Shown here: positions 4,647-29,601 of the stretch, one piece after another
How the letters are laid out: every line of letters begins with the position of its first letter
Numbering within the stretch: the first letter of the stretch is position 1
NCBI RefSeq assembly: GCF_055900595.2
Contig: NZ_CM148325.1
DNA: 64,000 bases
Direction: 5' to 3' (one strand)
Position numbers and translations under genes: made by a program
The notes under the pieces: model-generated
The model's input: the letters and a program-made list of their open reading frames with translations, nothing else
Told to the model about the DNA's origin: nothing
The model's database searches: none

Positions 4647-5465
4647 ATGCGATTAGCCAGTCGTTTTGGTTATGCGAACCAGATACGCCGTGACCGTCCG
4701 CTGACCCGTGAAGAGCTGATGCACCATGTGCCCGGGATTTTCGGGGAAGATAAACACACCTCCCGGAGCCGGAACTATACATACATCCCCACCATCACCG
4801 TGCTGGAAAGCCTGCAGCGGGAAGGCTTTCAGCCATTCTTCGCCTGCCAGACCCGCGTACGTGACCCGGGCCGCCGGGGGTATACCAAACACATGCTGCG
4901 TCTGCGCCGTGACGGGGAGATAAACGGACAACATGTCCCTGAAATTATTCTGCTCAACTCTCATGACGGTACCTCCAGCTACCAGATGCTGCCGGGTTAC
5001 TTCAGGTTCGTCTGCCAGAACGGATGCGTCTGCGGTCAGTCTCTGGGGGAAGTGCGTGTTCCGCACCGGGGAAATGTGGTGGACAGAGTCATTGAAGGGG
5101 CTTACGAGGTGGTGGGCGTGTTTGACCGGATAGAGGAGAAGCGTGATGCCATGCAGTCGCTGGTCCTGCCGCCACCGGCACGCCAGGCGCTGGCACAGGC
5201 GGCACTGACTTACCGTTATGGTGACGAACATCAGCCCGTCACCACCGCCGACATTCTGACACCACGACGCCGGGAGGATTACGGTAAGGACCTGTGGAGT
5301 GCTTATCAGACCATCCAGGAGAATATGCTGAAAGGCGGGATTTCCGGTCGCAGTGCAAAAGGAAAACGTATCCATACCCGGGCCATTCACAGCATTGATA
5401 CCGATATAAAACTCAACCGCGCATTGTGGGTGATGGCAGAAACGCTGCTTGAGAGCATGCGCTGA
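4647..5465 (+). CDS. DUF932-family island protein, YfjQ-like
   Basis: 272-aa ORF; position after the GTPase gene and similarity to YfjQ as recalled. Confidence 0.75.
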   Translation: MRLASRFGYANQIRRDRPLTREELMHHVPGIFGEDKHTSRSRNYTYIPTITVLESLQREGFQPFFACQTRVRDPGRRGYTKHMLRLRRDGEINGQHVPEIILLNSHDGTSSYQMLPGYFRFVCQNGCVCGQSLGEVRVPHRGNVVDRVIEGAYEVVGVFDRIEEKRDAMQSLVLPPPARQALAQAALTYRYGDEHQPVTTADILTPRRREDYGKDLWSAYQTIQENMLKGGISGRSAKGKRIHTRAIHSIDTDIKLNRALWVMAETLLESMR

Positions 5466-5546
5466 TGCCGTTTCCCTGAGTGAGGGAATCATTCAGCTTT
5501 CGTTCCTGAAAAACACACATTTATTTGTTATTTAAGGCGTTATCTC

Positions 5547-6026
5547 ATGAAAACCGTTTCTCAGAATACCCCCACAATTTATTCAGCTACAACACCAGAG
5601 AATAATCCGCCTCAGTTGGTTGCCAGCCTCGTCCCTGATGAACAGCGCATCAGCTTCTGGCCGCAGCATTTTGGCCTCATTCCACAGTGGGTGACCCTGG
5701 AGCCCCGTGTCTTCGGCTGGATGGACCGTCTGTGCGAAGACTACTGCGGTGGTATCTGGAATCTGTACACCCTGAACAACGGCGGGGCATTTATGGCCCC
5801 CGAACCGGATGATGATGATGACGAAACATGGGTACTGTTCAATGCCATGAACGGTAACCGCGCTGAAATGAGCCCGGAAGCCGCCGGCATTGCTGCCTGT
5901 CTGATGACGTACAGTCATCACGCCTGCCGTACGGAGTGTTATGCCATGACGGTTCATTATTACCGTCTGCGGGATTACGCCCTGCAGCATCCGGAATGCA
6001 GCGCCATTATGCGCATCATTGACTGA
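5547..6026 (+). CDS. Antirestriction protein, KlcA/ArdB-like (YfjX/YafX family)
   Basis: 159-aa ORF with acidic DDDDDE tract; conserved position preceding RadC-like gene in CP4-type islands. Confidence 0.75.
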   Translation: MKTVSQNTPTIYSATTPENNPPQLVASLVPDEQRISFWPQHFGLIPQWVTLEPRVFGWMDRLCEDYCGGIWNLYTLNNGGAFMAPEPDDDDDETWVLFNAMNGNRAEMSPEAAGIAACLMTYSHHACRTECYAMTVHYYRLRDYALQHPECSAIMRIID

Positions 6027-6041
6027 AAGGGGGCCGGAACA

Positions 6042-6518
6042 ATGCAACAGATTTCCTTTCTGCCCGGAGAAATGACAACCAGAGAGCGCAGCCTCATTCA
6101 GCGGGCCCTGAAAGCCCTGGACCGCCATCTTCATGAACCCGGCGTGGTCTTCACCTCCACGCATGCGGCACGGGAATGGCTGATTCTGAACATGGCGGGA
6201 CTGGAGCGTGAAGAATTCCGGGTGCTGTATCTGAACAACCAGAATCAGCTGATTGCCGGTGAAACCCTCTTCACCGGCACCATCAACCGCACGGAAGTCC
6301 ATCCCCGGGAAGTGATTAAACGCGCCCTGTACCACAATGCCGCTGCCGTGGTGCTGGCACACAATCACCCGTCCGGTGAAGTCACACCCAGTAAGGCAGA
6401 CCGCCTTATTACGGAACGTCTGGTACAGGCGCTGGCCCTGGTGGATATCCGGGTGCCGGACCATCTGATAGTCGGTGGCAGCCAGGTTTTCTCCTTTGCC
6501 GAACATGGTCTGCTTTAA
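6042..6518 (+). CDS. RadC-like JAB/JAMM domain protein (YfjY/YeeS/YkfG family)
   Basis: 158-aa ORF containing JAMM metal-binding motif HNHPSG...D (VVLAHNHPSGEVTPSKADRLITERL). Confidence 0.85.
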   Translation: MQQISFLPGEMTTRERSLIQRALKALDRHLHEPGVVFTSTHAAREWLILNMAGLEREEFRVLYLNNQNQLIAGETLFTGTINRTEVHPREVIKRALYHNAAAVVLAHNHPSGEVTPSKADRLITERLVQALALVDIRVPDHLIVGGSQVFSFAEHGLL

Positions 6519-6580
6519 CCCGTCACAACCACATCACACCTGTTTTCACTTTTATCTTCTGTCTTCAGAGGTATCCCATT

Positions 6581-6802
6581 ATGAAAATCATCACCCGTGG
6601 TGAAGCCATGCGTATTCACCAACAGCATCCTGCATCCCGTCTTTTTCCGTTCTGTACCGGCAAATACCGCTGGCACGGCAGCACTGAAACGTATACCGGT
6701 CGTGAAGTGCAGGATATTCCCGGTGTGCTGGCTGTGTTTGCAGAACGTCGTAAGGACAGTTTTGGCCCGTATGTCCGGCTGATGAGCGTCACCCTGAACT
6801 GA
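6581..6802 (+). CDS. DUF987 protein (YeeT/YpjJ/YkfH family)
   Basis: 73-aa ORF in conserved island position after RadC-like gene. Confidence 0.7.
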   Translation: MKIITRGEAMRIHQQHPASRLFPFCTGKYRWHGSTETYTGREVQDIPGVLAVFAERRKDSFGPYVRLMSVTLN

Positions 6803-6816
6803 GTCAGGGCATTCTG

Positions 6817-7447
6817 ATGAGCAGAATTATCACCATCACAGTGTATACGCTGGATGAACTTTCCTGCCCGGCACGGGAAAAAGCCCGCGACGGGTACCGT
6901 CAGCATCATGCTGACAGCAACTGGTATGAAAACGTGTATGAAGACTTCAGGGAGGTCTGTGGCATTTTCGGAATTGACCTCCGCCAGCGCGTTTTCCGGC
7001 TCAGCAACGGCAGGTTTATGGAGGAGCCGAGCATCTGGTTCAGCGGATTCTGCAGCCAGGGACGGAGCCTGTTTTGAAGGACGCTGGCACTGGCAGTCAG
7101 CAACAACCAGGAGAGTCCGGGAGTATGCCCCGCAGAACCGTGAGCTTCATCGTATCGCGGATGCCCTGCAGGCGGTGCAGAAACGTAACTTCTGGCAACT
7201 GCAGGCTGAAATCCACCACCGGGGACGTTACTGCCATCCGTTATCACTGTTACCCGGAACAGTCCGACTGGTCAGGCTATGACAGCCGATGCGGAAGCCG
7301 CTGTCAGCGAAGCCCTGCGCGACCTGGCCTTCTGGCTGTACCGTCAACTGGAAAACGAGTACGACCAGATGACCTCAGACGCCGCTGTGGATGAGGCCAT
7401 TCTCATCAATGCATACATCTTCACCGAAACCGGTCAGCGCACCGGCT
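6817..7447 (+). pseudogene. Island gene apparently disrupted by frameshifts (about 210 codons spread over three reading frames)
   Basis: Contiguous overlapping ORFs 6817-7077 (frame 1), 6854-7282 (frame 2), 7074-7394 (frame 3) and a frame-1 tail 7279-7447; pattern typical of a frameshifted gene. Identity not recognised. Confidence 0.35.
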
Positions 7448-7498
7448 GACCTGTCATCGTTAAACCATTCTTAACCACTTTTCAGAGAGGATTTTATC

Positions 7499-7867
7499 GT
7501 GTCAGACACACTCTCCGGGATAACTCATCCCGACGACAATCACGACCGCCCCTGGTGGGGGCTTCCCTGCACAGTGAGGCCCTGTTTTGGCGCCCGTCTG
7601 GTGCAGGAGGGTAACCGCCTGCATTACCTTGCCGACCGCGCCGGCATCAGAGGCCGGTTCAGCGATGCGGATGCATACCATCTGGACCAGGCCTTTCCGC
7701 TGCTGATGAAACAACTGGAACTCATGCTCACCAGCGGTGAACTGAATCCCCGCCATCAGCATACCGTCACGCTGTATGCAAAAGGGCTGACCTGCGAAGC
7801 CGACACCCTCGGCAGTTGTGGTTACGTTTATCTGGCTGTTTATCCGACGCCCGAAACGAAAAAGTAA
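7499..7867 (+). CDS. Type IV antitoxin, CbeA/YfjZ/YafW family
   Basis: 122-aa ORF MSDTLSGITHPDDNHDRPWWGLPCTV... closely resembles K-12 CbeA (YeeU)/YfjZ. Confidence 0.85.
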   Translation: MSDTLSGITHPDDNHDRPWWGLPCTVRPCFGARLVQEGNRLHYLADRAGIRGRFSDADAYHLDQAFPLLMKQLELMLTSGELNPRHQHTVTLYAKGLTCEADTLGSCGYVYLAVYPTPETKK

Positions 7868-7957
7868 ACCACCGGAATAACCTTCTGCTCCGGCCAGGTG
7901 TTTTCACCACGCCACTCTCCCCATAATTTAATCTCTCATATCAGGAAAATCTTCAGT

Positions 7958-8368
7958 ATGAAATTATTACCCGACACACATGTACGGGAGGCATCGTGCT
8001 GCCCGTCTCCCGTCACCATCTGGCAGACACTGCTCATCCGTCTGCTGGACCAGCACTATGGCCTCACACTGAATGACACACCGTTCGCTGATGAACGTGT
8101 GATTGAGCAGCATATTGAGGCCGGCATTTCACTGTGCGATGCGGTGAACTTTCTCGTTGAAAAATACGCACTGGTACGTACCGACCAGCCGGGATTCAGC
8201 GCAGGAGCCCCGTCGCAGTTAATCAACAGCATCGATATTCTCCGGGCCCGCCGGGCAACAGGCCTGATGACACGTAATAACTACAGAATGGTAAATAACA
8301 TTACCCTGGGTAGCATCCGGGGGCGAAACGATGAAACTTTCCCTGACGCTGGAAGCCGACAGCATTAA
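7958..8368 (+). CDS. Type IV toxin, CbtA/YpjF/YkfI family (cytoskeleton-inhibiting toxin)
   Basis: ORF from ATG at 7958 (MKLLPD...[60 protein letters not shown]...) matches CbtA-like toxins; immediately downstream of antitoxin. C-terminal extent uncertain. Confidence 0.8.
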
Positions 8369-8753
8369 CGTGCAGGCACTGAACATGGGGCGCATTGTCG
8401 TTGACATTGATGGTGTAAATCTCGCTGAACTGATTAACAAGGTCGCTGAATACGGTTATTCACTCCGCGTGGTGGATGAACGTGACGCTACCGAAACACC
8501 GGCGACTTCTGCCAGCTCTCATCAGTTGCCGGAAGACAATACAGTGATACAGAGCGTGATGCCATTAACCACTGAAACAGCGCTGGATATCCTCATTGCG
8601 TGGCTGCAGGACAATATCGACTGCGGGTCCGGAATTATTTTCGACAACGATGAGGATAAAACGGATTCGGCAGCACTGCTGCCCTGTATTGAACAGGCCA
8701 GGGAGGATATCCGTACCCTGCACCAACTGCAACTTCTGCACCAGAACCGGTGA
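8331..8753 (+). CDS. YeeW-like island protein
   Basis: 140-aa ORF following the toxin gene as in CP4-44/CP4-57 modules; assignment by position and recalled similarity. Confidence 0.55.
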
Positions 8754-8837
8754 ATCTCACTCACCAGACTTCATTCTCCTGACGCCAGCCTGAACAGAGC
8801 TGGCGTTTTCGTTTATAAACAGAAAGGAAACCCCATA

Positions 8838-9623
8838 ATGTCATATATCACAATCCCCCACCCGAACGCGGTCAACGGACATACAGCCGTTATCTGTTCC
8901 ACAAGTATCAGACACATCCTGGCTGTACGAAAGAGTACACTGCTGCAAATCGACACGCTTATCCGGCAACTGACAGAAATCTCAGCACTGACGGAAAGTA
9001 TTGGCGGTAAAGCCGCCCCGGACTGGGCGATGAAACAGAATTTTCGCTGTGGTTGCTGGCTGATGGAGAAACCAGAAACAGCAATGAAAGCCATTACCCG
9101 GAATCTTGACCGCGAAATCTGGCGTAACCTGATGCAGCGTTCCGGGATGCTTTCCTTAATGGATGCACAGGCACGTGATACATGGTACAGGTCACTGGAA
9201 TATGATAATTTTCCGGAAATCAGTGAAGCGAACATTCTGAGCACATTTGAACAACTGCACCAGAATAAGGATGAAGTGTTTGAGCGGGGGGTGATCAACC
9301 TCTTCAAAGGGCTGAGCTGGGATTACAAAACCAACTCACCCTGTAAATTTGGCAGTAAAATTATCGTCAACAATCTGGTGAGGTGGGACCAGTGGGGATT
9401 TCATCTTATCAGTGGAATGCAGGCAGATCGCCTGGCTGACCTGGAAAGAATGTTGCATCTGCTCAGCGGTAAACCGATCCCCGACAACCGGGGAATATCA
9501 CCATTAATCTGGATGACCACATACAGTCCGTTCAGGGTAAAGGACGCTATGAAGATGAGATGTTCATCATTAAATACTTTAAGAAGGGAGCTGCACACAT
9601 CACTTTCAAAAGGCTGGAGCTGA
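8838..9623 (+). CDS. Hypothetical island-terminal protein, 261 aa
   Basis: Uninterrupted ORF with plausible RBS context; last gene before the tRNA-fragment repeat. Family not recognised. Confidence 0.6.
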   Translation: MSYITIPHPNAVNGHTAVICSTSIRHILAVRKSTLLQIDTLIRQLTEISALTESIGGKAAPDWAMKQNFRCGCWLMEKPETAMKAITRNLDREIWRNLMQRSGMLSLMDAQARDTWYRSLEYDNFPEISEANILSTFEQLHQNKDEVFERGVINLFKGLSWDYKTNSPCKFGSKIIVNNLVRWDQWGFHLISGMQADRLADLERMLHLLSGKPIPDNRGISPLIWMTTYSPFRVKDAMKMRCSSLNTLRRELHTSLSKGWS

Positions 9624-9789
9624 TTGACAGAATTAACGATATAATAGCCAGGCACTTTCCTTCTGTGCTCTCAGCCTGACCCCGAGTTTGATTCCCTTTC
9701 GATATCAAAAGGGACTGCGGGTACAAAAGAGGGTACATCTTTCACCAAACCAAACAAAATAAACCAATATCAACATGATAGAAGCATTC

Positions 9790-9811
9790 TTCGATTCCGA
9801 GTCCGGCACCA
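9790..9811 (+). repeat. tRNA-Phe 3'-end fragment (attR-type direct repeat of island integration site)
   Basis: TTCGATTCCGAGTCCGGCACCA matches the 3' end of E. coli tRNA-Phe (TTCGATTCCGAGTCCGGGCACCA) with one G missing; upstream sequence does not continue as tRNA. Confidence 0.7.
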
Positions 9812-9822
9812 AATTCATATAA

Positions 9823-10442: not shown

Positions 10443-11152
10443 ATGCAACAACCTGTAGTTCGCGTTGGCGAATGGCTTGTTACTCCGTCCATAAACCAAA
10501 TTAGCCGCAATGGGCGTCAACTTACCCTTGAGCCGAGATTAATCGATCTTCTGGTTTTCTTTGCTCAACACAGTGGCGAAGTACTTAGCAGGGATGAACT
10601 TATCGATAATGTCTGGAAGAGAAGTATTGTCACCAATCACGTTGTGACGCAGAGTATCTCAGAACTACGTAAGTCATTAAAAGATAATGATGAAGATAGT
10701 CCTGTCTATATCGCTACTGTACCAAAGCGCGGCTATAAATTAATGGTGCCGGTTATCTGGTACAGCGAAGAAGAGGGAGAGGAAATAATGCTATCTTCGC
10801 CTCCCCCTATACCAGAGGCGGTTCCTGACACAGATTCTCCCTCCCAAAGTCTTAACATTCAAAACACCGCAACACCACCTGAACAATCCCCAGTTAAAAG
10901 CAAACGATTCACTACCTTTTGGGTATGGTTTTTTTTCCTGTTGTCGTTAGGTATCTGTGTAGCACTGGTAGCGTTTTCAAGTCTTGATACACGTCTTCCT
11001 ATGAGCAAATCGCGTATTTTGCTCAATCCACGCGATATTGACATTAATATGGTAAATAAAAGTTGTAACAGCTGGAGTTCCCCGTATCAGCTCTCTTACG
11101 CGATAGGCGTGGGTGATTTGGTGGCGACATCACTTAACACCTTCTCCACCTT
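10443..11152 (+). pseudogene. cadC: cadC 5' fragment (DNA-binding domain and transmembrane segment) truncated by IS1 insertion
   Basis: ORF MQQPVVRVGEWLVTPSINQISRNGRQLTLEPRLIDLL... equals CadC N-terminus; reading frame runs into IS1 and ends 6 codons later (VMLPTY-stop at 11174). Confidence 0.9.
11144..11152. repeat. IS1 target-site duplication, left copy (CTCCACCTT)
   Basis: Identical 9-bp sequence immediately flanks both IS1 ends. Confidence 0.85.
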
Positions 11153-11207
11153 GGTGATGCTGCCAACTTACTGATTTAGTGTATGATGGTGTTTTTGAGG
11201 TGCTCCA

Positions 11208-11483
11208 GTGGCTTCTGTTTCTATCAGCTGTCCCTCCTGTTCAGCTACTGACGGGGTGGTGCGTAACGGCAAAAGCACCGCCGGACATCAGCGCTATCTC
11301 TGCTCTCACTGCCGTAAAACATGGCAACTGCAGTTCACTTACACCGCTTCTCAACCCGGTACGCACCAGAAAATCATTGATATGGCCATGAATGGCGTTG
11401 GATGCCGGGCAACTGCCCGCATTATGGGCGTTGGCCTCAACACGATTTTACGTCACTTAAAAAACTCAGGCCGCAGTCGGTAA
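11208..11483 (+). CDS. insA: IS1 InsA (transposition repressor / N-terminal part of InsAB' transposase)
   Basis: 91-aa [94 protein letters not shown]. Confidence 0.95.
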
Positions 11484-11905
11484 CCTCGCGCATACAGCCG
11501 GGCAGTGACGTCATCGTCTGTGCGGAAATGGACGAACAGTGGGGCTATGTCGGGGCTAAATCGCGCCAGCGCTGGCTGTTTTACGCGTATGACAGGCTCC
11601 GGAAGACGGTTGTTGCGCACGTATTCGGTGAACGCACTATGGCGACGCTGGGGCGTCTTATGAGCCTGCTGTCACCCTTTGACGTGGTGATATGGATGAC
11701 GGATGGCTGGCCGCTGTATGAATCCCGCCTGAAGGGAAAGCTGCACGTAATCAGCAAGCGATATACGCAGCGAATTGAGCGGCATAACCTGAATCTGAGG
11801 CAGCACCTGGCACGGCTGGGACGGAAGTCGCTGTCGTTCTCAAAATCGGTGGAGCTGCATGACAAAGTCATCGGGCATTATCTGAACATAAAACACTATC
11901 AATAA
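11402..11905 (+). CDS. insB: IS1 InsB (C-terminal part of InsAB' transposase)
   Basis: 167-aa ORF matching IS1 InsB (…[33 protein letters not shown]…). Confidence 0.95.
11457..11465 (+). promoter_or_regulatory. IS1 programmed -1 ribosomal frameshift site (A6C motif TTAAAAAAC)
   Basis: Sequence TTAAAAAAC at the insA/insB overlap, the known site producing InsAB' transposase. Confidence 0.75.
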
Positions 11906-11920
11906 GTTGGAGTCATTACC

Positions 11921-11929
11921 CTCCACCTT
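11921..11929. repeat. IS1 target-site duplication, right copy (CTCCACCTT)
   Basis: Identical to 11144-11152. Confidence 0.85.
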
Positions 11930-12758
11930 TATGGTGCATGACAAAATCAACTACAACATTGATGAACCGAGCAGTTCCGGTAAAACATTATCTATTGCGT
12001 TTGTTAATCAGCGCCAATACCGTGCTCAACAATGCTTTATGTCGGTAAAATTGGTAGACAATGCAGATGGTTCAACCATGCTGGATAAACGTTATGTCAT
12101 CACTAACGGTAATCAGCTGGCGATTCAAAATGATTTACTGGAGAGTTTATCAAAAGCGTTAAACCAACCGTGGCCACAACGAATGCAGGAGATGCTCCAG
12201 CAAATTTTGCCTCATCGTGGTGCGTTATTAACTAATTTTTATCAGGCACATGATTATTTACTGCATGGCGATGATAAATCATTGAACCGTGCCAGTGAAT
12301 TACTAGGTGAGATTGTTCAATCATCCCCCGAATTTACCTACGCGAGAGCAGAAAAAGCATTAGTTGATATCGTGCGCCATTCTCAACATCCTTTAGATGA
12401 AAAACAATTAGCAGCACTGAATACAGAAATAGATAACATTGTTACACTGCCGGAATTGAACAACCTGTCCATTATATATCAAATAAAAGCGGTCAGTGCT
12501 CTGGTAAAAGGTAAAACAGATGAGTCTTACCAGGCGATAAATACTGGCATTGATCTTGAAATGTCCTGGCTAAATTATGTGTTGCTTGGCAAGGTTTATG
12601 AAATGAAGGGGATGAACCGGGAAGCAGCTGATGCATATCTCACCGCCTTTAATTTACGCCCAGGGGCAAACACCCTTTACTGGATTGAAAATGGTATATT
12701 CCAGACTTCTGTTCCTTATGTTGTACCTTATCTCGACAAATTTCTCGCCTCAGAATAA
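11921..12758 (+). pseudogene. cadC: cadC 3' fragment (periplasmic sensor domain) separated from its 5' part by IS1
   Basis: Frame reading STFMVHDKINYNIDEPSSSGKTLSIAFVNQRQYRAQQCF... to stop at 12758 matches the CadC periplasmic domain. Confidence 0.9.
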
Positions 12759-13122
12759 GTGACTCCCGGGTTGACTCATGCTCGGGAATATTTGTTGTTG
12801 ATTTTTTGTATGTTATTGTTGGTATAATATGTTGCGGCAATTTATTTGCCGCATAATTTTTATCACATAAATTTAACCATGGAATATTCTGCAATCTATT
12901 GTAAACATTGAATGTTTATCTTTTCATGATATCAACTTGCGATCCTGATGTGTTAATAAAAAACCTCAAGTTCTCACTTACAGAAACTTTTGTGTTATTT
13001 CACCTAATCTTTAGGATTAATCTTTTTTTTTGAGTAATCTTGTCGCCAGTTTGGTCTGGTCAGTAAATAGTTACGCATCATGACCCGGACTCCAAATTCA
13101 AAAATGAAATTAGGAGAAGAGC
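12759..13122 (+). promoter_or_regulatory. cadBA promoter region (Pcad; CadC-binding region inferred)
   Basis: AT-rich 364-bp intergenic region upstream of cadB; position-based inference from the known cad operon organisation, individual sites not mapped. Confidence 0.45.
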
Positions 13123-14457
13123 ATGAGTTCTGCCAAGAAGATCGGGCTATTTGCCTGTACCGGTGTTGTTGCCGGTAATATGATGGGGAGCGGCATTGCA
13201 TTATTGCCTGCGAACCTTGCAAGTATCGGTGGTATTGCTATCTGGGGTTGGATTATCTCTATTATTGGTGCAATGTCGTTGGCTTATGTATATGCCCGAC
13301 TGGCAACAAAAAACCCGCAACAAGGTGGCCCAATTGCTTATGCCGGAGAAATTTCTCCTGCATTTGGTTTTCAGACAGGTGTTCTTTATTACCATGCTAA
13401 CTGGATTGGTAACCTGGCGATTGGTATTACCGCTGTATCTTATCTTTCCACCTTCTTCCCTGTATTAAATGATCCTGTTCCGGCGGGTATCGCTTGTATT
13501 GCTATCGTCTGGGTATTTACCTTTGTAAATATGCTCGGCGGTACCTGGGTAAGCCGTTTAACCACTATTGGTCTGGTGCTGGTTCTTATTCCTGTAGTTA
13601 TGACTGCTATTGTTGGCTGGCATTGGTTTGATGCTGCAACTTATGCTGCTAACTGGAATACCGCAGGTACTACTGATGGTCATGCGATCATTAAAAGTAT
13701 TCTGCTCTGCCTGTGGGCCTTCGTGGGTGTTGAATCCGCAGCGGTAAGTACTGGTATGGTTAAAAACCCGAAACGTACCGTTCCGCTGGCAACCATGCTG
13801 GGTACTGGTTTAGCAGGTATTGTTTACATCGCTGCGACTCAGGTGCTTTCCGGTATGTATCCGTCTTCTGTAATGGCAGGCTCCGGTGCTCCGTTTGCAA
13901 TCAGTGCTTCTACTATCCTGGGTAACTGGGCTGCGCCGATGGTTTCTGCATTCACCGCTTTTGCGTGCCTGACTTCTCTGGGCTCCTGGATGATGCTGGT
14001 AGGTCAGGCAGGTGTGCGTGCCGCTAACGACGGTAACTTCCCGAAAGTTTATGGTGAAGTCGACAGCAACGGTATTCCGAAAAAAGGTCTGCTGCTGGCT
14101 GCAGTGAAAATGACTGCCCTGATGATCCTCATCACTCTGATGAACTCTGCCGGTGGTAAAGCATCTGACCTGTTCGGTGAACTGACCGGTATCGCAGTAC
14201 TGCTGACTATGCTGCCGTACTTCTACTCTTGCGTTGACCTGATTCGTTTTGAAGGCGTTAACATCCGCAACTTTGTCAGCCTGATCTGCTCTGTACTGGG
14301 TTGCGTGTTCTGCTTCATCGCGCTAATGGGCGCAAGCTCCTTCGAGCTGGCAGGTACCTTCATCGTCAGCCTGATTATCCTGATGTTCTACGCTCGCAAA
14401 ATGCACGAGCGCCAGAGCCACTCAATGGATAACCACACAGCGTCTAACGCACATTAA
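13123..14457 (+). CDS. cadB: Lysine:cadaverine antiporter
   Basis: 444-aa [40 protein letters not shown]...; APC-family transporter; conserved position. Confidence 0.95.
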   Translation: MSSAKKIGLFACTGVVAGNMMGSGIALLPANLASIGGIAIWGWIISIIGAMSLAYVYARLATKNPQQGGPIAYAGEISPAFGFQTGVLYYHANWIGNLAIGITAVSYLSTFFPVLNDPVPAGIACIAIVWVFTFVNMLGGTWVSRLTTIGLVLVLIPVVMTAIVGWHWFDAATYAANWNTAGTTDGHAIIKSILLCLWAFVGVESAAVSTGMVKNPKRTVPLATMLGTGLAGIVYIAATQVLSGMYPSSVMAGSGAPFAISASTILGNWAAPMVSAFTAFACLTSLGSWMMLVGQAGVRAANDGNFPKVYGEVDSNGIPKKGLLLAAVKMTALMILITLMNSAGGKASDLFGELTGIAVLLTMLPYFYSCVDLIRFEGVNIRNFVSLICSVLGCVFCFIALMGASSFELAGTFIVSLIILMFYARKMHERQSHSMDNHTASNAH

Positions 14458-14536
14458 TTAAAAGTATTTTCCGAGGCTCCTCCTTTCATTTTGTCCCATG
14501 TGTTGGGAGGGGCCTTTTTTACCTGGAGATATGACT

Positions 14537-16684
14537 ATGAACGTTATTGCAATATTGAATCACATGGGGGTTTATTTTAAAGAAGAACCCATCCGTGAAC
14601 TTCATCGCGCGCTTGAACGTCTGAACTTCCAGATTGTTTACCCGAATGACCGTGACGACTTATTAAAACTGATCGAAAACAATGCGCGTCTGTGCGGTGT
14701 TATTTTTGACTGGGATAAATATAATCTCGAGCTGTGCGAAGAAATTAGCAAAATGAACGAGAACCTGCCGTTGTACGCGTTCGCTAATACGTATTCCACT
14801 CTCGATGTCAGCCTGAATGACCTGCGTTTACAGATTAGCTTCTTTGAATATGCGCTGGGTGCTGCTGATGATATTGCTAACAAGATCAAGCAGACCACTG
14901 ACGAATATATCAACACTATTCTGCCTCCGCTGACCAAAGCACTGTTTAAATATGTTCGTGAAGGTAAATATACTTTCTGTACTCCTGGTCACATGGGCGG
15001 TACTGCATTCCAGAAAAGCCCGGTAGGTAGCCTGTTCTATGATTTCTTTGGTCCGAACACCATGAAATCTGATATTTCCATTTCAGTATCTGAACTGGGT
15101 TCTCTGCTGGATCACAGTGGTCCACACAAAGAAGCAGAACAGTATATCGCTCGCGTATTTAACGCAGACCGCAGCTACATGGTGACCAACGGTACTTCCA
15201 CTGCGAACAAAATTGTTGGTATGTACTCTGCTCCGGCAGGCAGCACCATTCTGATTGACCGTAACTGCCACAAATCGCTGACCCACCTGATGATGATGAG
15301 CGATGTTACGCCAATCTATTTCCGCCCGACCCGTAACGCTTACGGTATTCTTGGTGGTATCCCACAGAGTGAATTCCAGCACGCTACCATTGCTAAGCGC
15401 GTAAAAGAAACACCAAACGCGACCTGGCCGGTACATGCCGTAATTACTAACTCTACCTATGATGGCCTGCTGTACAACACCGACTTCATTAAGAAAACGC
15501 TGGATGTGAAATCCATCCACTTTGACTCCGCGTGGGTGCCTTACACCAACTTCTCACCGATTTACGAAGGTAAATGCGGTATGAGCGGTGGCCGTGTAGA
15601 AGGGAAAGTGATTTACGAAACCCAGTCTACTCACAAACTGCTGGCGGCGTTCTCTCAGGCTTCCATGATCCACGTTAAAGGTGATGTAAACGAAGAAACC
15701 TTTAACGAAGCCTACATGATGCACACCACCACTTCTCCGCACTACGGTATCGTGGCGTCCACTGAAACCGCTGCGGCGATGATGAAAGGTAATGCTGGTA
15801 AGCGTCTGATCAACGGTTCCATTGAACGTGCGATCAAGTTCCGTAAAGAGATCAAACGCCTGAGAACGGAATCTGATGGCTGGTTCTTTGATGTATGGCA
15901 GCCGGATCATATCGATACCACTGAATGCTGGCCGCTGCGTTCTGACAGCTCCTGGCACGGCTTCAAGAACATCGACAATGAGCACATGTATCTTGACCCG
16001 ATTAAAGTCACCCTGCTGACTCCGGGGATGGAAAAAGACGGCACCATGAGCGACTTCGGTATTCCGGCCAGCATCGTGGCGAAATACCTCGACGAACATG
16101 GCATCGTTGTTGAGAAAACCGGTCCGTATAACCTGCTGTTCCTGTTCAGCATCGGTATCGATAAGACCAAAGCACTGAGCCTGCTGCGTGCTCTGACTGA
16201 CTTCAAACGTGCGTTCGACCTGAACCTGCGTGTGAAAAACATGCTGCCGTCTCTGTATCGTGAAGATCCTGAATTCTATGAAAACATGCGTATTCAGGAA
16301 CTGGCTCAGAATATCCACAAACTGATTGTTCACCACAATCTGCCGGATCTGATGTATCGCGCATTTGAAGTGCTGCCGACTATGGTAATGACTCCATATG
16401 CTGCGTTCCAGAAAGAGCTGCACGGTATGACCGAAGAAGTTTACCTCGACGAAATGGTAGGTCGTATTAACGCCAATATGATCCTTCCGTATCCGCCGGG
16501 AGTTCCTCTGGTAATGCCGGGTGAAATGATCACCGAAGAAAGCCGTCCGGTGCTGGAGTTCCTGCAGATGCTGTGTGAAATCGGCGCTCACTATCCGGGC
16601 TTTGAAACCGATATTCACGGTGCATACCGTCAGGCTGATGGTCGCTATACCGTTAAGGTATTGAAAGACGAAAGCAAAAAATAA
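14537..16684 (+). CDS. cadA: Inducible lysine decarboxylase
   Basis: 715-aa frame from ATG 14537 (MNVIAILNHMGVYFKEEPIRELHRALERLNFQIVYPNDRDD...) matching CadA; intact. Confidence 0.95.
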   Translation: MNVIAILNHMGVYFKEEPIRELHRALERLNFQIVYPNDRDDLLKLIENNARLCGVIFDWDKYNLELCEEISKMNENLPLYAFANTYSTLDVSLNDLRLQISFFEYALGAADDIANKIKQTTDEYINTILPPLTKALFKYVREGKYTFCTPGHMGGTAFQKSPVGSLFYDFFGPNTMKSDISISVSELGSLLDHSGPHKEAEQYIARVFNADRSYMVTNGTSTANKIVGMYSAPAGSTILIDRNCHKSLTHLMMMSDVTPIYFRPTRNAYGILGGIPQSEFQHATIAKRVKETPNATWPVHAVITNSTYDGLLYNTDFIKKTLDVKSIHFDSAWVPYTNFSPIYEGKCGMSGGRVEGKVIYETQSTHKLLAAFSQASMIHVKGDVNEETFNEAYMMHTTTSPHYGIVASTETAAAMMKGNAGKRLINGSIERAIKFRKEIKRLRTESDGWFFDVWQPDHIDTTECWPLRSDSSWHGFKNIDNEHMYLDPIKVTLLTPGMEKDGTMSDFGIPASIVAKYLDEHGIVVEKTGPYNLLFLFSIGIDKTKALSLLRALTDFKRAFDLNLRVKNMLPSLYREDPEFYENMRIQELAQNIHKLIVHHNLPDLMYRAFEVLPTMVMTPYAAFQKELHGMTEEVYLDEMVGRINANMILPYPPGVPLVMPGEMITEESRPVLEFLQMLCEIGAHYPGFETDIHGAYRQADGRYTVKVLKDESKK

Positions 16685-16693
16685 TTAGCTCGT

Positions 16694-16726
16694 ACAAGGG
16701 AAGTGGCTTGCCACTTCCCTTTTTTG
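16694..16726 (+). terminator. Rho-independent terminator downstream of cadA
   Basis: GGGAAGTGGC/GCCACTTCCC hairpin followed by TTTTTT. Confidence 0.65.
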
Positions 16727-16742
16727 CTCATAAGGAGAACAC

Positions 16743-18200
16743 ATGAAAACACCCTCACAGCCGCGCGCGATATACTATATCGTGGCGATCCAAATCTGGG
16801 AGTACTTCAGTTTTTACGGCATGCGTGCCTTACTCATTCTCTATCTCACCCATCAGCTTGGTTTTGATGATAACCATGCCATCAGCCTGTTCAGCGCATA
16901 TGCATCTCTGGTTTACGTTACCCCTATTCTCGGCGGCTGGCTTGCCGACCGCCTGCTCGGCAATCGTACTGCGGTAATTGCCGGCGCGCTGTTAATGACC
17001 CTTGGCCATGTAGTGCTGGGCATTGATACAAATTCAACCTTTAGCCTGTATCTGGCGCTGGCAATCATTATTTGTGGCTACGGTTTATTCAAATCAAACA
17101 TCAGCTGTTTGCTTGGCGAGCTCTACGACGAGAACGATCATCGACGTGATGGCGGTTTTTCGCTGCTGTATGCTGCGGGCAATATCGGTTCTATCGCAGC
17201 CCCCATCGCCTGCGGCCTGGCTGCTCAGTGGTATGGATGGCATGTTGGCTTTGCCCTTGCGGGTGGCGGCATGTTTATCGGTTTGTTGATTTTCTTAAGC
17301 GGTCATCGTCATTTCCAGTCAACGCGTAGTATGGATAAAAAAGCGCTCACTCGCGTGAAATTTGCCTTACCGGTATGGAGCTGGTTAGTGGTGATGCTCT
17401 GTTTAGCCCCAGTATTTTTTACCCTACTGCTGGAGAACGACTGGTCCGGATATTTGCTGGCGATCGTTTGCCTTATTGCTGCACAAATCATTGCCCGCAT
17501 GATGATCAAATACCCCGAACACCGTCGTGCTCTTTGGCAAATTGTATTGTTGATGTTTGTCGGGACGTTGTTCTGGGTACTGGCACAACAGGGCGGCAGT
17601 ACCATCAGTTTGTTTATCGATCGCTTTGTGAATCGTCAGGCATTCAATATTGAAGTACCTACTGCACTATTCCAGTCAGTGAACGCAATTGCGGTGATGC
17701 TCGCTGGGGTTGTTCTGGCCTGGCTGGCGTCGCCAGAAAGCCACGGCAACTCAACATTGCGCGTCTGGCTGAAGTTTGCCTTTGGCTTACTGCTGATGGC
17801 TTGTGGCTTTATGTTGCTGGCATTTGATGCCCGACATGCAGCGGCTGACGGTCAAGCGTCAATGGGCGTGATGATATCCGGGCTGGCGCTAATGGGCTTT
17901 GCCGAACTCTTTATTGACCCGGTGGCGATTGCGCAAATCACGCGTCTGAAAATGTCTGGCGTATTAACCGGGATTTATATGCTGGCAACAGGCGCGGTCG
18001 CCAACTGGCTGGCAGGCGTAGTGGCACAGCAGACGACAGAGTCGCAAATTAGCGGTATGGCAATTGCAGCTTACCAGCGATTCTTTTCTCAGATGGGAGA
18101 GTGGACGTTGGCTTGTGTCGCGATCATCGTCGTATTGGCCTTTGCTGCCCGTTTTCTGTTTAGCACGCCGACGAATATGATACAGGAGAGCAACGATTAA
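16743..18200 (+). CDS. dtpC: Dipeptide/tripeptide:H+ permease DtpC (YjdL)
   Basis: 485-aa POT-family [39 protein letters not shown]... Confidence 0.9.
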
Positions 18201-18436
18201 CTGTCGTAAAAACAATTGGTTATGAATAAATTAACTTTCAGTTTATCACACTAGTAAATTGAGATTAATAAGTCATTTAAACCATTTTTATGGTTATTTA
18301 TTAGTGATATCAACTTGAGGTAAGCGTTAGTTTCGATAAGATAAACTGAGTTATTAATAGTCGAGGCAGATAATACAGTGTACCGATCTGTCTCTTTATC
18401 TACGCTAAATTGAAAGCTGGATTTAGAGGAACCAAA

Positions 18437-19954
18437 ATGTCTGAACAAGAAACACGGGGAGCCAATGAGGCTATTGATTTTAACGATGAACTGAGAAATC
18501 GCCGCGAAAAACTGGCGGCACTGCGTCAGCAAGGTGTGGCGTTTCCTAATGATTTTCGCCGCGACCATACCTCTGACCAGTTGCACGAAGAGTTTGATGC
18601 GAAGGATAACCAGGAACTGGAATCCTTAAACATTGAAGTCTCGGTTGCTGGCCGAATGATGACCCGTCGTATCATGGGGAAAGCCTCCTTTGTAACGTTG
18701 CAGGATGTCGGTGGCCGTATTCAACTGTACGTTGCAAGAGATAGCCTGCCAGAAGGTGTTTATAATGATCAGTTTAAAAAATGGGACCTCGGCGACATTA
18801 TCGGTGCCCGCGGTACGCTGTTTAAGACGCAAACTGGTGAGCTTTCCATTCACTGTACTGAGTTACGCCTGCTGACTAAGGCACTGCGTCCATTGCCGGA
18901 TAAATTCCATGGCTTACAGGATCAGGAAGTCCGTTATCGTCAACGTTATCTGGACCTCATCGCTAACGATAAATCCCGTCAAACGTTTGTTGTCCGTTCA
19001 AAAATTCTGGCCGCTATCCGTCAGTTCATGGTCGCTCGCGGTTTTATGGAAGTAGAAACCCCAATGATGCAGGTAATTCCAGGTGGGGCATCTGCTCGCC
19101 CGTTTATTACCCATCATAACGCTCTGGATTTAGATATGTACCTGCGTATCGCGCCGGAGCTGTATCTGAAACGTCTGGTTGTAGGCGGTTTTGAACGGGT
19201 ATTCGAAATCAACCGTAACTTCCGTAATGAAGGTATTTCTGTTCGCCATAATCCTGAGTTCACAATGATGGAACTCTACATGGCATATGCGGATTACCAT
19301 GATTTGATTGAACTGACGGAGTCACTGTTCCGCACCCTGGCACAAGAGGTACTGGGTACCACTAAAGTCACTTATGGCGAGCATGTGTTTGATTTCGGCA
19401 AACCGTTTGAAAAACTCACCATGCGCGAAGCAATCAAAAAATATCGTCCAGAAACCGATATGGCGGATCTGGATAATTTTGATGCTGCTAAAGCATTAGC
19501 TGAATCTATCGGAATTACGGTAGAGAAAAGCTGGGGGCTGGGACGCATTGTCACGGAGATCTTTGATGAAGTGGCAGAAGCACATCTGATTCAGCCAACC
19601 TTTATCACGGAATATCCGGCAGAAGTGTCACCGCTGGCGCGCCGTAATGATGTTAACCCGGAAATCACCGACCGTTTTGAATTCTTCATCGGTGGTCGTG
19701 AAATCGGTAATGGTTTTAGCGAATTAAACGACGCAGAAGATCAGGCGGAACGTTTCCAGGAACAGGTTAACGCTAAAGCTGCAGGTGACGACGAAGCCAT
19801 GTTCTATGACGAAGATTACGTGACTGCGCTGGAATATGGTCTGCCGCCAACCGCGGGTCTGGGTATTGGTATCGACCGAATGATTATGCTGTTTACTAAC
19901 AGCCATACTATTCGCGACGTTATTCTCTTCCCGGCGATGCGTCCACAGAAATAA
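18437..19954 (+). CDS. lysU: Lysine--tRNA ligase, heat-inducible
   Basis: 505-aa frame from ATG 18437 ([33 protein letters not shown]...); lysU rather than lysS inferred from cad/dtpC context. Confidence 0.9.
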
Positions 19955-20072
19955 ATTTCATTTTAACGAACGAAGCAGTCAGACGACTGCTTCGTTCGTC
20001 GTTCCACAAATCCAGTTTCGAGGAGAGACGCTTCGTTTCAAGATAACCAGCGGGTCCACTCAACTACAGCTC

Positions 20073-20246
20073 CTAAAAGAGAGAAAAAAGCAATGCCACA
20101 GGCAGACTCATTGGCCAGGTTATTCCGACCAGAAATGCACTAAGTAAACGAATATGTGTTTTCTCATGTGAGATAAACCAGATAATGACAAAGGATATGT
20201 TCACACCAATCACATAAAAAATTAATATTTTAGAGAATAGTGCCAT
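20073..20246 (-). CDS. ghoT: Type V toxin GhoT (small membrane-lytic peptide, 57 aa)
   Basis: Hand-translated minus-strand ORF MALFSKILIFYVIGVNISFVIIWFISHEKTHIRLLSAFLVGITWPMSLPVALLFSLF; below ORF-track size cutoff. Confidence 0.85.
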   Translation of the reverse strand: MALFSKILIFYVIGVNISFVIIWFISHEKTHIRLLSAFLVGITWPMSLPVALLFSLF

Positions 20247-20273
20247 TTTTTATGTTCTTCTTATCCTTCCTGA

Positions 20274-20570
20274 CTACTTGTAAAACTGACGGAAATAGTC
20301 ATCAACTGTCATAATGTTGAGGTCAAAATCAATATCCGGTAAGTCTAAGCATTTGAGCCTGATTAAATCTTCGATTTCACTTGCGGCTAACGATGTCGTT
20401 ATTGCGAAGGAATTTTCATTCAATTGTCGTGGTATCCCATATTCATCAGCCACGATAGAGGAGAAATTCATATCATACATCAATGATCTTAACCTTAAGA
20501 ACACTGAGGAATAAGATGATGGATAATCAAAAGAAACAACATAAGTATTGAACTTGTTTTTACCTTCCAT
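20274..20570 (-). CDS. ghoS: Type V antitoxin GhoS (sequence-specific endoribonuclease)
   Basis: Frame from ATG (complement 20568-20570): MEGKNKFNTYVVSFDYPSSYSSVFLRLRSLMYDMNFSSIVADEYGIPRQLNE... Confidence 0.85.
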   Translation of the reverse strand: MEGKNKFNTYVVSFDYPSSYSSVFLRLRSLMYDMNFSSIVADEYGIPRQLNENSFAITTSLAASEIEDLIRLKCLDLPDIDFDLNIMTVDDYFRQFYK

Positions 20571-20798
20571 AATATGACTCCTATCAATATTAAACGATCT
20601 GGGGCCGCACAACTTATTAACCCCGATCGATGATTCTCATATAGGAGATATTCTTTTTTTTTTGCTCAGTAAAGGGGATGACTTGGGACAAGAAAACGCT
20701 CTCTCTGACCATTCTTTGTTCATCCCCCTACCCTTCAGATTCTCTCCTGCATCACACCGCGGAGAGCATGAAAAATATCGTGACTCTGTACTCTCCCA

Positions 20799-27598: not shown

Positions 27599-28249
27599 AT
27601 GACCCGCACACTCAAGCCGTTAATTCTTAACACCGGCGCACTGGCGCTAACGTTAATCCTGATTTATACCGGCATTTCGGCCCATGACAAACTCACCTGG
27701 CTGATGGAAGTGACGCCGGTGATTATTGTCGTGCCGCTACTGCTTGCCACCGCCAGACGTTACCCGTTAACGCCGCTGCTCTATACGCTCATTTTCTTTC
27801 ATGCCATCATCCTGATGGTCGGCGGACAATACACCTACGCGAAAGTCCCCGTTGGTTTTGACGTGCAAGAATGGCTGGGATTGAGCCGTAATCCGTATGA
27901 CAAGCTGGGGCATTTTTTCCAGGGGCTGGTGCCTGCACTGGTGGCGCGAGAAATTCTCGTTCGCGGGATGTACGTGCGCGGACGTAAAATGGTGGCGTTT
28001 CTGGTCTGCTGCGTGGCGCTGGCGATAAGCGCGATGTATGAATTAATCGAGTGGTGGGCAGCGCTGGCAATGGGTCAGGGAGCGGATGATTTTCTCGGTA
28101 CCCAAGGCGACCAATGGGACACACAATCCGATATGTTCTGCGCGCTACTTGGTGCATTAACGACGGTGATGTTCCTCGCTCGCTTTCATTACCGCCAGCT
28201 ACGGCGCTTTGGCTTAATCACCAGAGCGCCGGAAGCGATTACCTCTTAA
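27599..28249 (+). CDS. yjdF: Inner membrane protein YjdF
   Basis: 216-aa membrane ORF MTRTLKPLILNTGALALTLILIYTGISAHDKL...; its stop codon overlaps the melA stop on the other strand. Confidence 0.8.
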   Translation: MTRTLKPLILNTGALALTLILIYTGISAHDKLTWLMEVTPVIIVVPLLLATARRYPLTPLLYTLIFFHAIILMVGGQYTYAKVPVGFDVQEWLGLSRNPYDKLGHFFQGLVPALVAREILVRGMYVRGRKMVAFLVCCVALAISAMYELIEWWAALAMGQGADDFLGTQGDQWDTQSDMFCALLGALTTVMFLARFHYRQLRRFGLITRAPEAITS

Positions 28250-29601
28250 CGGTGCAACCAGCCTGGCAGCCAGTCGCCGTGGGCGGCAATCAGGTCGTCA
28301 ACAAGAGCATATATTTCGTCAATGCCCAGCACGGCGGCAGTATGCGGGTCCATCATCGCGGCGTGGTAAACACGGTCGCGATTTTCCGTAAGAATGGCTT
28401 CGGTCAGCAGCGTCTGTACGTTGATGTTGGTTTGCATCAGGGCGGCCAGATGCGAAGGTAGCGTACCGACTTTGGTCGGCTGAATGCCATTAGCATCAAC
28501 TAAACAGGCCACTTCCACGCAACATCCTTGTGGCAGGTTATCAATCAAACCATCGTTACGGACGTTGCCGTAAATCACACTCGGCTCGCCAGTCCAGATA
28601 GCGTTCATGATTGTGCTGGCATATTCCCGTGACGGTTTAATATCAATCCGGGAGGCGTTCTTATACTCCTCCAGCTCTTTATGCCAGTTTGCCAATTGTT
28701 CGACGCAGCGTTTCGGGTACTCATCCAGCGGCACTTTATAACGCTCAATCAAATCCTCACGACCTGGCTTAATAAACCACGGCGTGTACTCAGCAAAATG
28801 TTCTGACGATTCCGTGACGAAGTAGCCCAGCTTTTTGAACATTTCATAGCGCACAATATTCTGGCAGCGAGTATTGCCATGAATATTCGGCTTCGGTGCC
28901 TGCCCTGCTTCATAAGCCGCCAGCAGTTCCGGGTAGAGATTCACGTAACTGCCGTCGGCGGTTTTGCGCTCCAGTTCCAGGTAAAACGCCATATGGTTGA
29001 TACCTGCGCAACGGTAACGCAGCGTAGCCGGGTCGATATTGAGGTCACGCGCCAGCTCTTCCGCCGTTCCCTGCACCGAATGGCACAGCCCTACCTGTTT
29101 GATATGCGGATAACGGGCATACATCGCCCAGGTATTCATCGCCATTGGGTTAACATAGTTGAGCATGGTGGCATCGGGGCAGATTTCCGTCATGTCCTCG
29201 CAAATTTGCCACAGGTGAGGAATGGTACGTAGCGCGCGCATAATACCGCCCGGCCCCAGCGTATCGGCAATGGTTTGTTCCAGACCGTGGCGCTTACAGA
29301 CCTCAAAATCAGTCACCGTGCAAGGTTCATAACCGCCAATCTGAAATGCCACTACGACAAAATCGGCATCCTGTAAGGCTTCTTTCTGTTGGGTGTGGCA
29401 GGTGATTTTGCCACTGGCCCCTGCTGAATCCATCAGCTTGCGCACCACAATATGCGACTCTTCCAGGCGGGTGGGATCAATGTCCATCAGGGCAATATGC
29501 GCCGTTTTCAGCGCCTCGCGATGGAACACATCACCAAGAATATTTTTAACGAAAATCGTCGAACCAGCGCCGATAAATGTAATTTTGGGTGCAGACATCA
29601 T
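28246..29601 (-). CDS. melA: Alpha-galactosidase (melibiase)
   Basis: 451-aa ORF MMSAPKITFIGAGSTIFVKNILGDVFHREALKTAHIALMDIDPTRLEE... ending ...GDWLPGWLHR. Confidence 0.9.
   Translation of the reverse strand: MMSAPKITFIGAGSTIFVKNILGDVFHREALKTAHIALMDIDPTRLEESHIVVRKLMDSAGASGKITCHTQQKEALQDADFVVVAFQIGGYEPCTVTDFEVCKRHGLEQTIADTLGPGGIMRALRTIPHLWQICEDMTEICPDATMLNYVNPMAMNTWAMYARYPHIKQVGLCHSVQGTAEELARDLNIDPATLRYRCAGINHMAFYLELERKTADGSYVNLYPELLAAYEAGQAPKPNIHGNTRCQNIVRYEMFKKLGYFVTESSEHFAEYTPWFIKPGREDLIERYKVPLDEYPKRCVEQLANWHKELEEYKNASRIDIKPSREYASTIMNAIWTGEPSVIYGNVRNDGLIDNLPQGCCVEVACLVDANGIQPTKVGTLPSHLAALMQTNINVQTLLTEAILTENRDRVYHAAMMDPHTAAVLGIDEIYALVDDLIAAHGDWLPGWLHR

What the first reader, a model, noticed from the sequence alone, without database searches (positions are those of the whole stretch)
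20073..20570. GhoT/GhoS type V toxin-antitoxin pair present, with ghoT below the ORF-track size cutoff
The 57-aa membrane toxin GhoT was found only by hand translation of the minus strand downstream of ghoS. Small toxin genes like this are easily missed by length-thresholded ORF calling.
Basis: partly seen in the sequence, partly recalled or inferred. Interest (0 to 1): 0.25.

Follow-up and report, generated by a model that had tools for sequence, protein, structure and literature searches.

The report
Intact GhoT/GhoS toxin-antitoxin pair
This stretch holds the well-known E. coli ghoS-ghoT toxin-antitoxin operon, intact and with both proteins identical to the laboratory strain K-12, so it is an ordinary, already-annotated feature rather than a discovery.

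Summary
Observation confirmed. On the minus strand, ghoS (98 aa, 20274-20570) is followed after a 27-nt spacer by ghoT (57 aa, 20073-20246). Both are uninterrupted and 100% identical in protein to K-12 MG1655 b4128/b4559. GhoS matches PDB 2LLZ at 98/98 residues. Pfam scores are far above threshold. Gene order (dcuS-yjdI-yjdJ-ghoS-ghoT-lysU-dtpC-cadA) is that of K-12. All four coding differences from K-12 are synonymous, while the flanking intergenic DNA is about 6% diverged. ghoT is indeed below a 60-aa ORF cutoff, but NCBI's pipeline annotates it routinely, and the locus is in about 98% of 5,426 complete E. coli genomes. Verdict: already known, low interest.

One small oddity. A synonymous change (Leu52 TTA to TTG, window 20091) creates a 5'-GCU inside ghoT. 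K-12 ghoT is reported as one of 14 GCU-free E. coli mRNAs, the stated reason MqsR spares it. This allele is in only 9 of 5,426 genomes. The one sister genome checked lacks mqsRA at its K-12 position, so the change is probably neutral.

Outside the finding, cadC is split by IS1, and a pheU-type island with a CbtA/CbeA pair fills the first 9.8 kb.

The parts
20274..20570 (-). ghoS coding sequence (98 aa plus stop), the type V antitoxin, an endoribonuclease
   Evidence: 98/98 identical to PDB 2LLZ / K-12 YjdK. Pfam PF11080 at 138.8 bits. Two synonymous differences from K-12. Carries three 5'-GCT sites at nt 121, 213 and 221, as in K-12.
20578..20582 (-). AGGAG Shine-Dalgarno sequence, 7 nt upstream of the ghoS ATG
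   Evidence: Read directly from the sequence; invariant against K-12.
20247..20273 (-). 27-nt ghoS-ghoT spacer, purine-rich (AGGAAGGATAAGAAG), the likely ribosome-binding region for ghoT
   Evidence: Sequence. One difference from K-12, at 20273. The short spacer with no terminator-like site fits the single ghoS-ghoT mRNA described in PMC5408214.
20073..20246 (-). ghoT coding sequence (57 aa plus stop), a small hydrophobic membrane toxin
   Evidence: 57/57 identical to K-12 b4559. Pfam PF10753 at 90.4 bits. GRAVY 1.50, with two hydrophobic segments (about residues 1-26 and 34-57) separated by the charged loop HEKTHIR. F38 is present.
20089..20091 (-). 5'-GCT (GCU in the mRNA) created by the synonymous Leu52 TTA to TTG change; absent from K-12 ghoT
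   Evidence: This allele is in 9 of 5,426 genomes, against 4,319 + 322 + 190 genomes with A at this position.
19965..20000 (.). Perfect hairpin (16 pairs here, loop GUCU) between the convergent genes ghoT and lysU; a candidate shared terminator or mRNA-stabilising stem
   Evidence: Fold of 19945-20075: -44.1 kcal/mol, z = -3.98. The 13-bp core is invariant in 8 alleles. The consensus terminator scan did not call it because no T-run follows.
20571..20798 (-). yjdJ-ghoS intergenic region, presumed to hold the promoter; includes an A-run that is A10 here and A8 in K-12
   Evidence: 13 differences from K-12 in 228 nt. The only promoter-like hit on this strand lies at 20836-20808, inside the end of yjdJ, and hit counts do not exceed the shuffled expectation. 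The promoter is therefore not located.

Best explanation
This is the chromosomal ghoS-ghoT operon of E. coli, the founding type V toxin-antitoxin system, present in intact form. By identity with K-12, it is expected to work as follows. Both genes are transcribed as one mRNA, antitoxin first. GhoS is a stable, sequence-specific endoribonuclease with a ferredoxin-like fold, and it cleaves the ghoT part of the message so that little toxin is made. When GhoS activity falls relative to ghoT mRNA, the 57-aa two-helix peptide GhoT inserts into the inner membrane, lowers ATP and proton-motive force, and slows growth or lyses the cell ('ghost' cells, persistence). What is shown here is sequence identity, intactness, synteny and purifying selection. 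What is inferred is expression and activity in this strain, and any link to MqsR.
For: GhoS is 98/98 identical to PDB 2LLZ. GhoT and GhoS are 100% identical to K-12 b4559/b4128, with only 4 synonymous differences in 471 coding nt against 20 differences in 346 nt of the two flanking intergenic regions. Pfam PF10753 and PF11080 score well above their cutoffs. Synteny is the same as K-12 and as a PGAP-annotated genome with an identical locus. The locus is present in 5,335 of 5,426 complete E. coli genomes. Six of the eight aligned ghoT alleles are annotated with one protein accession, WP_001173343.1 (Z0117EC0005, whose locus is identical to the window, stands in for it), at down to 97.1% nucleotide identity; K-12 encodes the identical protein under its own accession. 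GhoT is strongly hydrophobic, with two segments and F38 retained. The mechanism is as described in PMC4344625, PMC4905990, PMC3905216 and PMC5408214.
Against: Nothing in the sequence argues against it. Three caveats apply. No expression or activity data exist for this strain. The promoter could not be located by consensus scan. The primary papers (PMC3514572, PMC3620836) were not available, so the exact GhoS cleavage sites in ghoT mRNA could not be compared with the two synonymous changes in ghoT. The physiological role of chromosomal toxin-antitoxin systems in persistence is debated (my knowledge).
Confidence: 0.97

Rival explanations
1. The 57-codon ORF is a chance open frame or a decayed remnant, and only ghoS is a real gene.
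For: The region is AT-rich (about 35% G+C), and chance ORFs of 50-66 aa occur nearby on both strands.
Against: It is 57/57 identical to the experimentally characterised K-12 toxin. Pfam gives 90 bits. Across eight alleles, 7 of 8 polymorphic sites are synonymous. A genuinely disrupted ghoT looks different: in strain ES3 it is cut by IS1 and flagged as a pseudogene.
Confidence: 0.01
2. The small protein is the orphan paralogue OrtT (YdcX), not GhoT.
For: Pfam PF10753 covers both GhoT and OrtT, so the family hit alone does not tell them apart.
Against: It is 100% identical to K-12 b4559 (GhoT), lies 27 nt downstream of ghoS, and sits in the yjdJ-lysU interval. OrtT is a separate locus without an antitoxin partner (PMC4344625).
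Confidence: 0.005
3. The pair is intact, but its regulation differs from K-12. The new GCU in ghoT would make the toxin message cleavable by MqsR, abolishing the MqsR-to-GhoT cascade in this lineage.
For: There is a GCU at ghoT nt 156-158 that K-12 and seven other sampled alleles lack. The cascade model rests on ghoT being GCU-free (PMC4905990, PMC4344625, PMC3905216). The allele is rare, in 9 of 5,426 genomes.
Against: The sister genome with the identical locus lacks ygiS-mqsA-mqsR at the K-12 position, so there may be no MqsR to act. mqsRA is in only 42% of genomes, yet the GCU-free allele predominates across all E. coli, so GCU absence is not obviously maintained by MqsR. The chance of zero GCT in 174 nt of this composition is 0.09. 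GCU sites also occur just after the ghoT stop codon in both strains.
Confidence: 0.05

Closest known systems
E. coli K-12 GhoT/GhoS (b4559/b4128; YjdO/YjdK), the type V toxin-antitoxin system
   Same: Protein sequences are identical (57/57 and 98/98). The gene order is the same (antitoxin first), as are the 27-nt spacer length, the neighbouring genes and the three GCU sites in ghoS.
   Different: There are four synonymous coding changes, and one of them creates a GCU in ghoT. The flanking intergenic regions are about 6% diverged, including an A10 versus A8 run upstream of ghoS.
OrtT (YdcX), the orphan GhoT paralogue
   Same: Same Pfam family PF10753, and the same predicted two-helix membrane-damaging peptide (PMC4344625).
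   Different: OrtT has no adjacent antitoxin, is not neutralised by GhoS, has two GCU sites and sits at a different locus (PMC4344625). The window gene is GhoT by identity and context.
CbtA/CbeA type IV pair in the same window (7499-8368)
   Same: It is another chromosomal toxin-antitoxin pair in which the antitoxin is a protein encoded upstream of the toxin.
   Different: The families are unrelated (PF06755/PF06154), it is carried on an island, and the antitoxin acts on the toxin's targets rather than on its mRNA (PMC4905990 introduction).

Membership tests
GhoT/GhoS type V toxin-antitoxin system | The antitoxin belongs to the GhoS endoribonuclease family (PF11080; solved structure 2LLZ) | tested here: met
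   138.8 bits against a cutoff of 21; 98/98 identity to 2LLZ chain A.
GhoT/GhoS type V toxin-antitoxin system | The toxin is a small (about 57 aa) hydrophobic two-helix membrane peptide of family PF10753, with F38 (the F38R substitution abolishes toxicity) | tested here: met
   90.4 bits against a cutoff of 22.1; 57/57 identity to K-12 GhoT; GRAVY 1.50, two hydrophobic segments, F38 present. The F38R result is from PMC4344625.
GhoT/GhoS type V toxin-antitoxin system | The two genes are adjacent on one strand, ghoS upstream of ghoT, as a bicistronic operon | tested here: met
   27-nt spacer, same strand, no terminator-like site between them. Co-transcription itself is taken from the literature (PMC5408214), not shown here.
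GhoT/GhoS type V toxin-antitoxin system | GhoS cleaves ghoT mRNA; it acts on the mRNA rather than by binding the toxin protein | not testable with these tools
   This is a biochemical property. It is inferred from protein identity. The two synonymous ghoT changes could not be compared with the mapped cleavage sites because the primary paper is not held.
GhoT/GhoS type V toxin-antitoxin system | GhoT is toxic through membrane damage and ATP loss | not testable with these tools
   Inferred from 100% identity to the tested K-12 protein (PMC4344625, PMC4905990).
MqsR-controlled GhoST cascade, as described in K-12 | The ghoT coding mRNA lacks 5'-GCU while ghoS carries GCU sites | tested here: not met
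   ghoS has 3 GCT sites. ghoT has 1 GCT (nt 156) in the window and 0 in K-12.
MqsR-controlled GhoST cascade, as described in K-12 | mqsRA is present in the same genome | tested here: inconclusive
   The locus lies outside the window. In Z0117EC0005, whose ghoST locus is identical, ygiS-mqsA-mqsR are absent between parC and ygiV. The rest of that genome and the window's own genome were not checked.

The most novel reading that the evidence does not exclude
The rare synonymous TTA-to-TTG change puts an MqsR recognition triplet (GCU) into an mRNA noted for lacking one, in a lineage that appears to have lost mqsRA. If GCU absence in ghoT is actively maintained only where MqsR is present, this allele would be a natural example of relaxed constraint, and a ready-made test of the MqsR-to-GhoT cascade model.
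Probability: 0.05. Interest if true: 0.3.

Novelty: already known. Interest (0 to 1): 0.06.

Why it matters
It matters little. The locus is a textbook toxin-antitoxin system, found in about 98% of complete E. coli genomes and named routinely by standard annotation. The practical lesson is limited to pipeline design: a 60-aa ORF threshold hides real genes such as ghoT. The GCU-bearing allele offers a cheap natural control for anyone testing whether MqsR really discriminates between ghoS and ghoT mRNA. So does the finding that mqsRA is present in only 42% of genomes while ghoST is nearly universal.

Tried and rejected
1. NCBIfam gave no hit for either protein. I take this as no matching profile in that library rather than as evidence against the call, since Pfam, PDB and RefSeq naming all agree.

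2. The consensus promoter and terminator scan found nothing convincing for the operon: 4 promoter-like sites against 3.1 expected, and no terminators.

3. I first read the C-G (window) versus T-A (K-12) difference at the base of the ghoT-lysU hairpin as a compensatory change. Across 8 alleles the commonest state is a C·A mismatch, so the covariation is weak and only the invariant 13-bp core can be claimed.

4. Rfam finds no RNA family at the locus. At the gathering threshold there is nothing, and the permissive scan gives only a chance-level PhrS hit of 13.7 bits against 37.

5. The primary GhoT/GhoS papers were not held, so I used reviews and later papers from the same group.

6. I looked for the source genome using the island-IS1-cadC junction. 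No complete E. coli RefSeq genome has that arrangement (best 94.4%), so the strain is not identified.

7. Two scripts failed because K-12 locus files were not exported to the sandbox. I worked around this through the alignment file.

8. I did not run the large protein-database, structure-prediction or metagenome tools. Identity to a solved and characterised K-12 pair made them unnecessary.

Full report
**What is there.** On the minus strand of the window there are two adjacent ORFs. The first runs 20570 to 20274 (ATG, 98 codons, TAG) and the second 20246 to 20073 (ATG, 57 codons, TAG). They are separated by a 27-nt purine-rich spacer. The mechanical ORF list extends the first ORF to a TTG at 20612. 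The ATG at 20570 has an AGGAG sequence 7 nt upstream and corresponds to the K-12 and PDB start.

**Is it more than chance?** ORF length alone says nothing here. The locus is about 35% G+C, against about 50% in its neighbours, and chance ORFs of 50-66 aa lie all around it, including a 66-aa antisense ORF inside ghoS. The evidence is comparative.

- The 98-aa protein is identical at 98/98 positions to PDB 2LLZ (K-12 YjdK = GhoS).
- A three-way DNA alignment with K-12 MG1655 shows both proteins 100% identical to b4128 and b4559.
- Pfam gives PF11080 (GhoS) at 138.8 bits and PF10753 (GhoT_OrtT) at 90.4 bits. Both cutoffs are about 21-22 bits.
- The window differs from K-12 at only 4 of 471 coding positions, all synonymous. 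The yjdJ-ghoS and ghoT-lysU intergenic regions differ at 13 of 228 and 7 of 118 positions.
- Across eight ghoT alleles sampled from every identity tier of 5,283 genomes, 7 of 8 polymorphic sites are synonymous. Six of the eight are annotated with one protein accession (Z0117EC0005 standing in for the window), and K-12 encodes the identical protein under its own accession.

**Context.** The gene order is dcuR-dcuS / yjdI-yjdJ-ghoS-ghoT / lysU-dtpC-cadA-cadB-cadC, as in K-12 and as in the PGAP-annotated genome Z0117EC0005, whose 801-nt locus is identical. The locus occurs in 5,335 of 5,426 complete E. coli genomes, and the listed hits are annotated 'type V toxin-antitoxin system toxin GhoT'. So ghoT is below a 60-aa cutoff, but real pipelines do not miss it. 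In K-12 its out-of-series tag, b4559 between b4128 and b4129, suggests it was added after the first annotation (my inference).

**Anatomy.** GhoT is strongly hydrophobic (GRAVY 1.50). It has two hydrophobic segments, about residues 1-26 and 34-57, on either side of a short charged loop (H27 E28 K29 T H I R33). It retains F38, the residue whose F38R substitution abolishes toxicity (PMC4344625). No terminator-like element lies between the genes, which fits a single ghoS-ghoT mRNA (PMC5408214).

Between ghoT and the convergent lysU there is a perfect hairpin at 19965-20000, with 16 pairs here and a GUCU loop. The 131-nt region folds at -44.1 kcal/mol, z = -3.98. Its 13-bp core is invariant in eight alleles. 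An apparent compensatory C-G / T-A change at the stem base is not convincing, because most alleles carry a C·A mismatch there. No T-run follows the stem on either strand, so it is a candidate rather than a canonical terminator. The promoter was not located. Rfam finds nothing at the locus.

**Mechanism.** Inferred from identity with K-12, the antitoxin GhoS is a stable sequence-specific endoribonuclease that cleaves ghoT mRNA rather than binding the toxin. GhoT is a membrane-damaging peptide that lowers ATP and produces ghost or persister cells (PMC4344625, PMC4905990, PMC3905216). None of this is shown for this strain. What is shown is intactness, identity and purifying selection.

**A small oddity.** The literature states that K-12 ghoT is one of only 14 E. 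coli mRNAs lacking the MqsR site 5'-GCU. It also states that MqsR therefore degrades the ghoS part of the transcript and spares ghoT, activating the toxin.

- In the window, ghoS has the same three GCU sites as K-12. ghoT carries one GCU, created by the synonymous Leu52 TTA-to-TTG change at window 20091.
- Allele-specific 32-mer searches find this allele in 9 of 5,426 genomes. Alleles with A at that position are in 4,319 + 322 + 190 genomes. About 443 ghoT-bearing genomes remain unresolved.
- All seven other sampled alleles are GCU-free.
- In Z0117EC0005, one of the nine, the K-12 mqsRA position reads parC, a 69-bp gene fragment, then ygiV, with ygiS, mqsA and mqsR absent.
- Across E. coli, mqsRA is in only 2,298 of 5,426 genomes (42%), while ghoST is nearly universal.
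- The chance of zero GCT in 174 nt of this composition is 0.09.

Taken together, the SNP is most likely neutral in a lineage without MqsR. Because the GCU-free allele predominates while mqsRA is present in only 42% of genomes, its GCU-free state owes at least as much to low diversity as to selection by MqsR. I record it as a natural variant that could serve as a control, not as a finding.

**Comparison and novelty.** This is a member of the GhoT/GhoS type V system. Every sequence-level defining feature was tested and met, and the biochemical features are inferred. It is not OrtT, which shares the Pfam family, because it is identical to b4559 and is paired with ghoS. The finding is already known, and interest is low.

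**Outside the finding.**

- cadC (start 10443) is interrupted by an IS1 at 11153-11920. The element has 23-bp terminal inverted repeats, insA and insB ORFs, and a 9-bp target duplication, CTCCACCTT. The cadB, cadA and dtpC ORFs remain open. Inactivation of cadC by insertion sequences is a known pathoadaptive route to the lysine-decarboxylase-negative phenotype of enteroinvasive E. coli (PMC4156367).
- Homology to the reference stops at 9790, inside the last 23 nt of tRNA-Phe (pheU). No intact tRNA lies in the window. Window 1-9789 is the far end of an island encoding a GTPase, DUF932, an antirestriction protein, RadC, a CbeA/CbtA type IV toxin-antitoxin pair, DUF5983 and DUF4942.
- The window, like Z0117EC0005, lacks melB and the als operon relative to K-12.
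- No complete E. coli RefSeq genome shares the island-IS1-cadC arrangement, so the source strain was not identified.

Noticed in passing
window 11153-11920 (cadC starts at 10443; its remainder resumes at 11921): A complete 768-bp IS1 splits the cadC activator gene. It has 23-bp terminal inverted repeats, insA at 11208-11483, insB' at 11402-11905, and a 9-bp target duplication CTCCACCTT at 11144-11152 and 11921-11929. The cadB, cadA and dtpC ORFs downstream are open. This predicts a lysine-decarboxylase-negative phenotype, a known pathoadaptive trait of EIEC and Shigella (PMC4156367).
   Followed up: partly
window 1-9812: Homology to the reference chromosome ends at 9790, inside the 3' 23 nt of tRNA-Phe (pheU), and ARAGORN finds no intact tRNA in the window. 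Window 1-9789 looks like the distal end of a pheU-integrated island, with 9790-9812 as the tRNA-derived direct repeat. Its ORFs hit GTPase, DUF932, Antirestrict, RadC, DUF5983 and DUF4942 families. A 407-aa ORF at 2253-3476 (-) has no Pfam hit.
   Followed up: partly
window 7499-7867 and 7958-8368 (+): A second toxin-antitoxin pair lies in the window, a type IV CbeA antitoxin (PF06154, 184 bits) followed by a CbtA toxin (PF06755, 199 bits). The CbtA ORF runs about 24 aa past the end of the Pfam model and overlaps the next gene.
   Followed up: partly
window 20089-20091 (ghoT nt 156-158): A synonymous Leu52 TTA-to-TTG change creates the only 5'-GCU in ghoT, an mRNA reported as GCU-free in K-12. 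The allele is in 9 of 5,426 complete genomes. The sister genome Z0117EC0005 lacks ygiS-mqsA-mqsR at the K-12 site.
   Followed up: yes
E. coli genome collection: mqsRA is found in only 2,298 of 5,426 complete E. coli genomes (42%), whereas ghoST is in about 98%. The published MqsR-to-GhoT cascade can therefore operate in at most a minority of strains that carry ghoST.
   Followed up: partly
window about 27599-29601 and about 57262-59817 (by collinearity with L003): Relative to K-12, this lineage lacks melB (melA abuts yjdF) and the alsK-alsR operon, with only a 318-bp rpiB fragment left between yjcS and yjdP. This is inferred from gap-free collinearity with Z0117EC0005 and was not inspected base by base in the window.
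   Followed up: partly
L011 401-903 (strain ES3, NZ_CM184350.1): This is a real case of ghoT disruption. IS1 truncates ghoT after nt 102 and PGAP flags it as a pseudogene, while ghoS stays intact.
   Followed up: no
window 19539-64000 versus 11921-20539: Identity to Z0117EC0005 is mosaic: 99.97% over cadC-ghoS (2 mismatches in 8.6 kb) but 98.9% over the next 44 kb (472 mismatches). This suggests a recombination boundary near ghoST.
   Followed up: no
window 39299-39464 (-) and 45151-45227 (+): Rfam hits above gathering score: sRNA STnc630 (182 bits) and nucleoid-associated RNA naRNA4 (99 bits).
   Followed up: no
window 20655-20664: An A-run upstream of ghoS is A10 here and A8 in K-12, a length polymorphism in the presumed promoter and leader region.
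   Followed up: no
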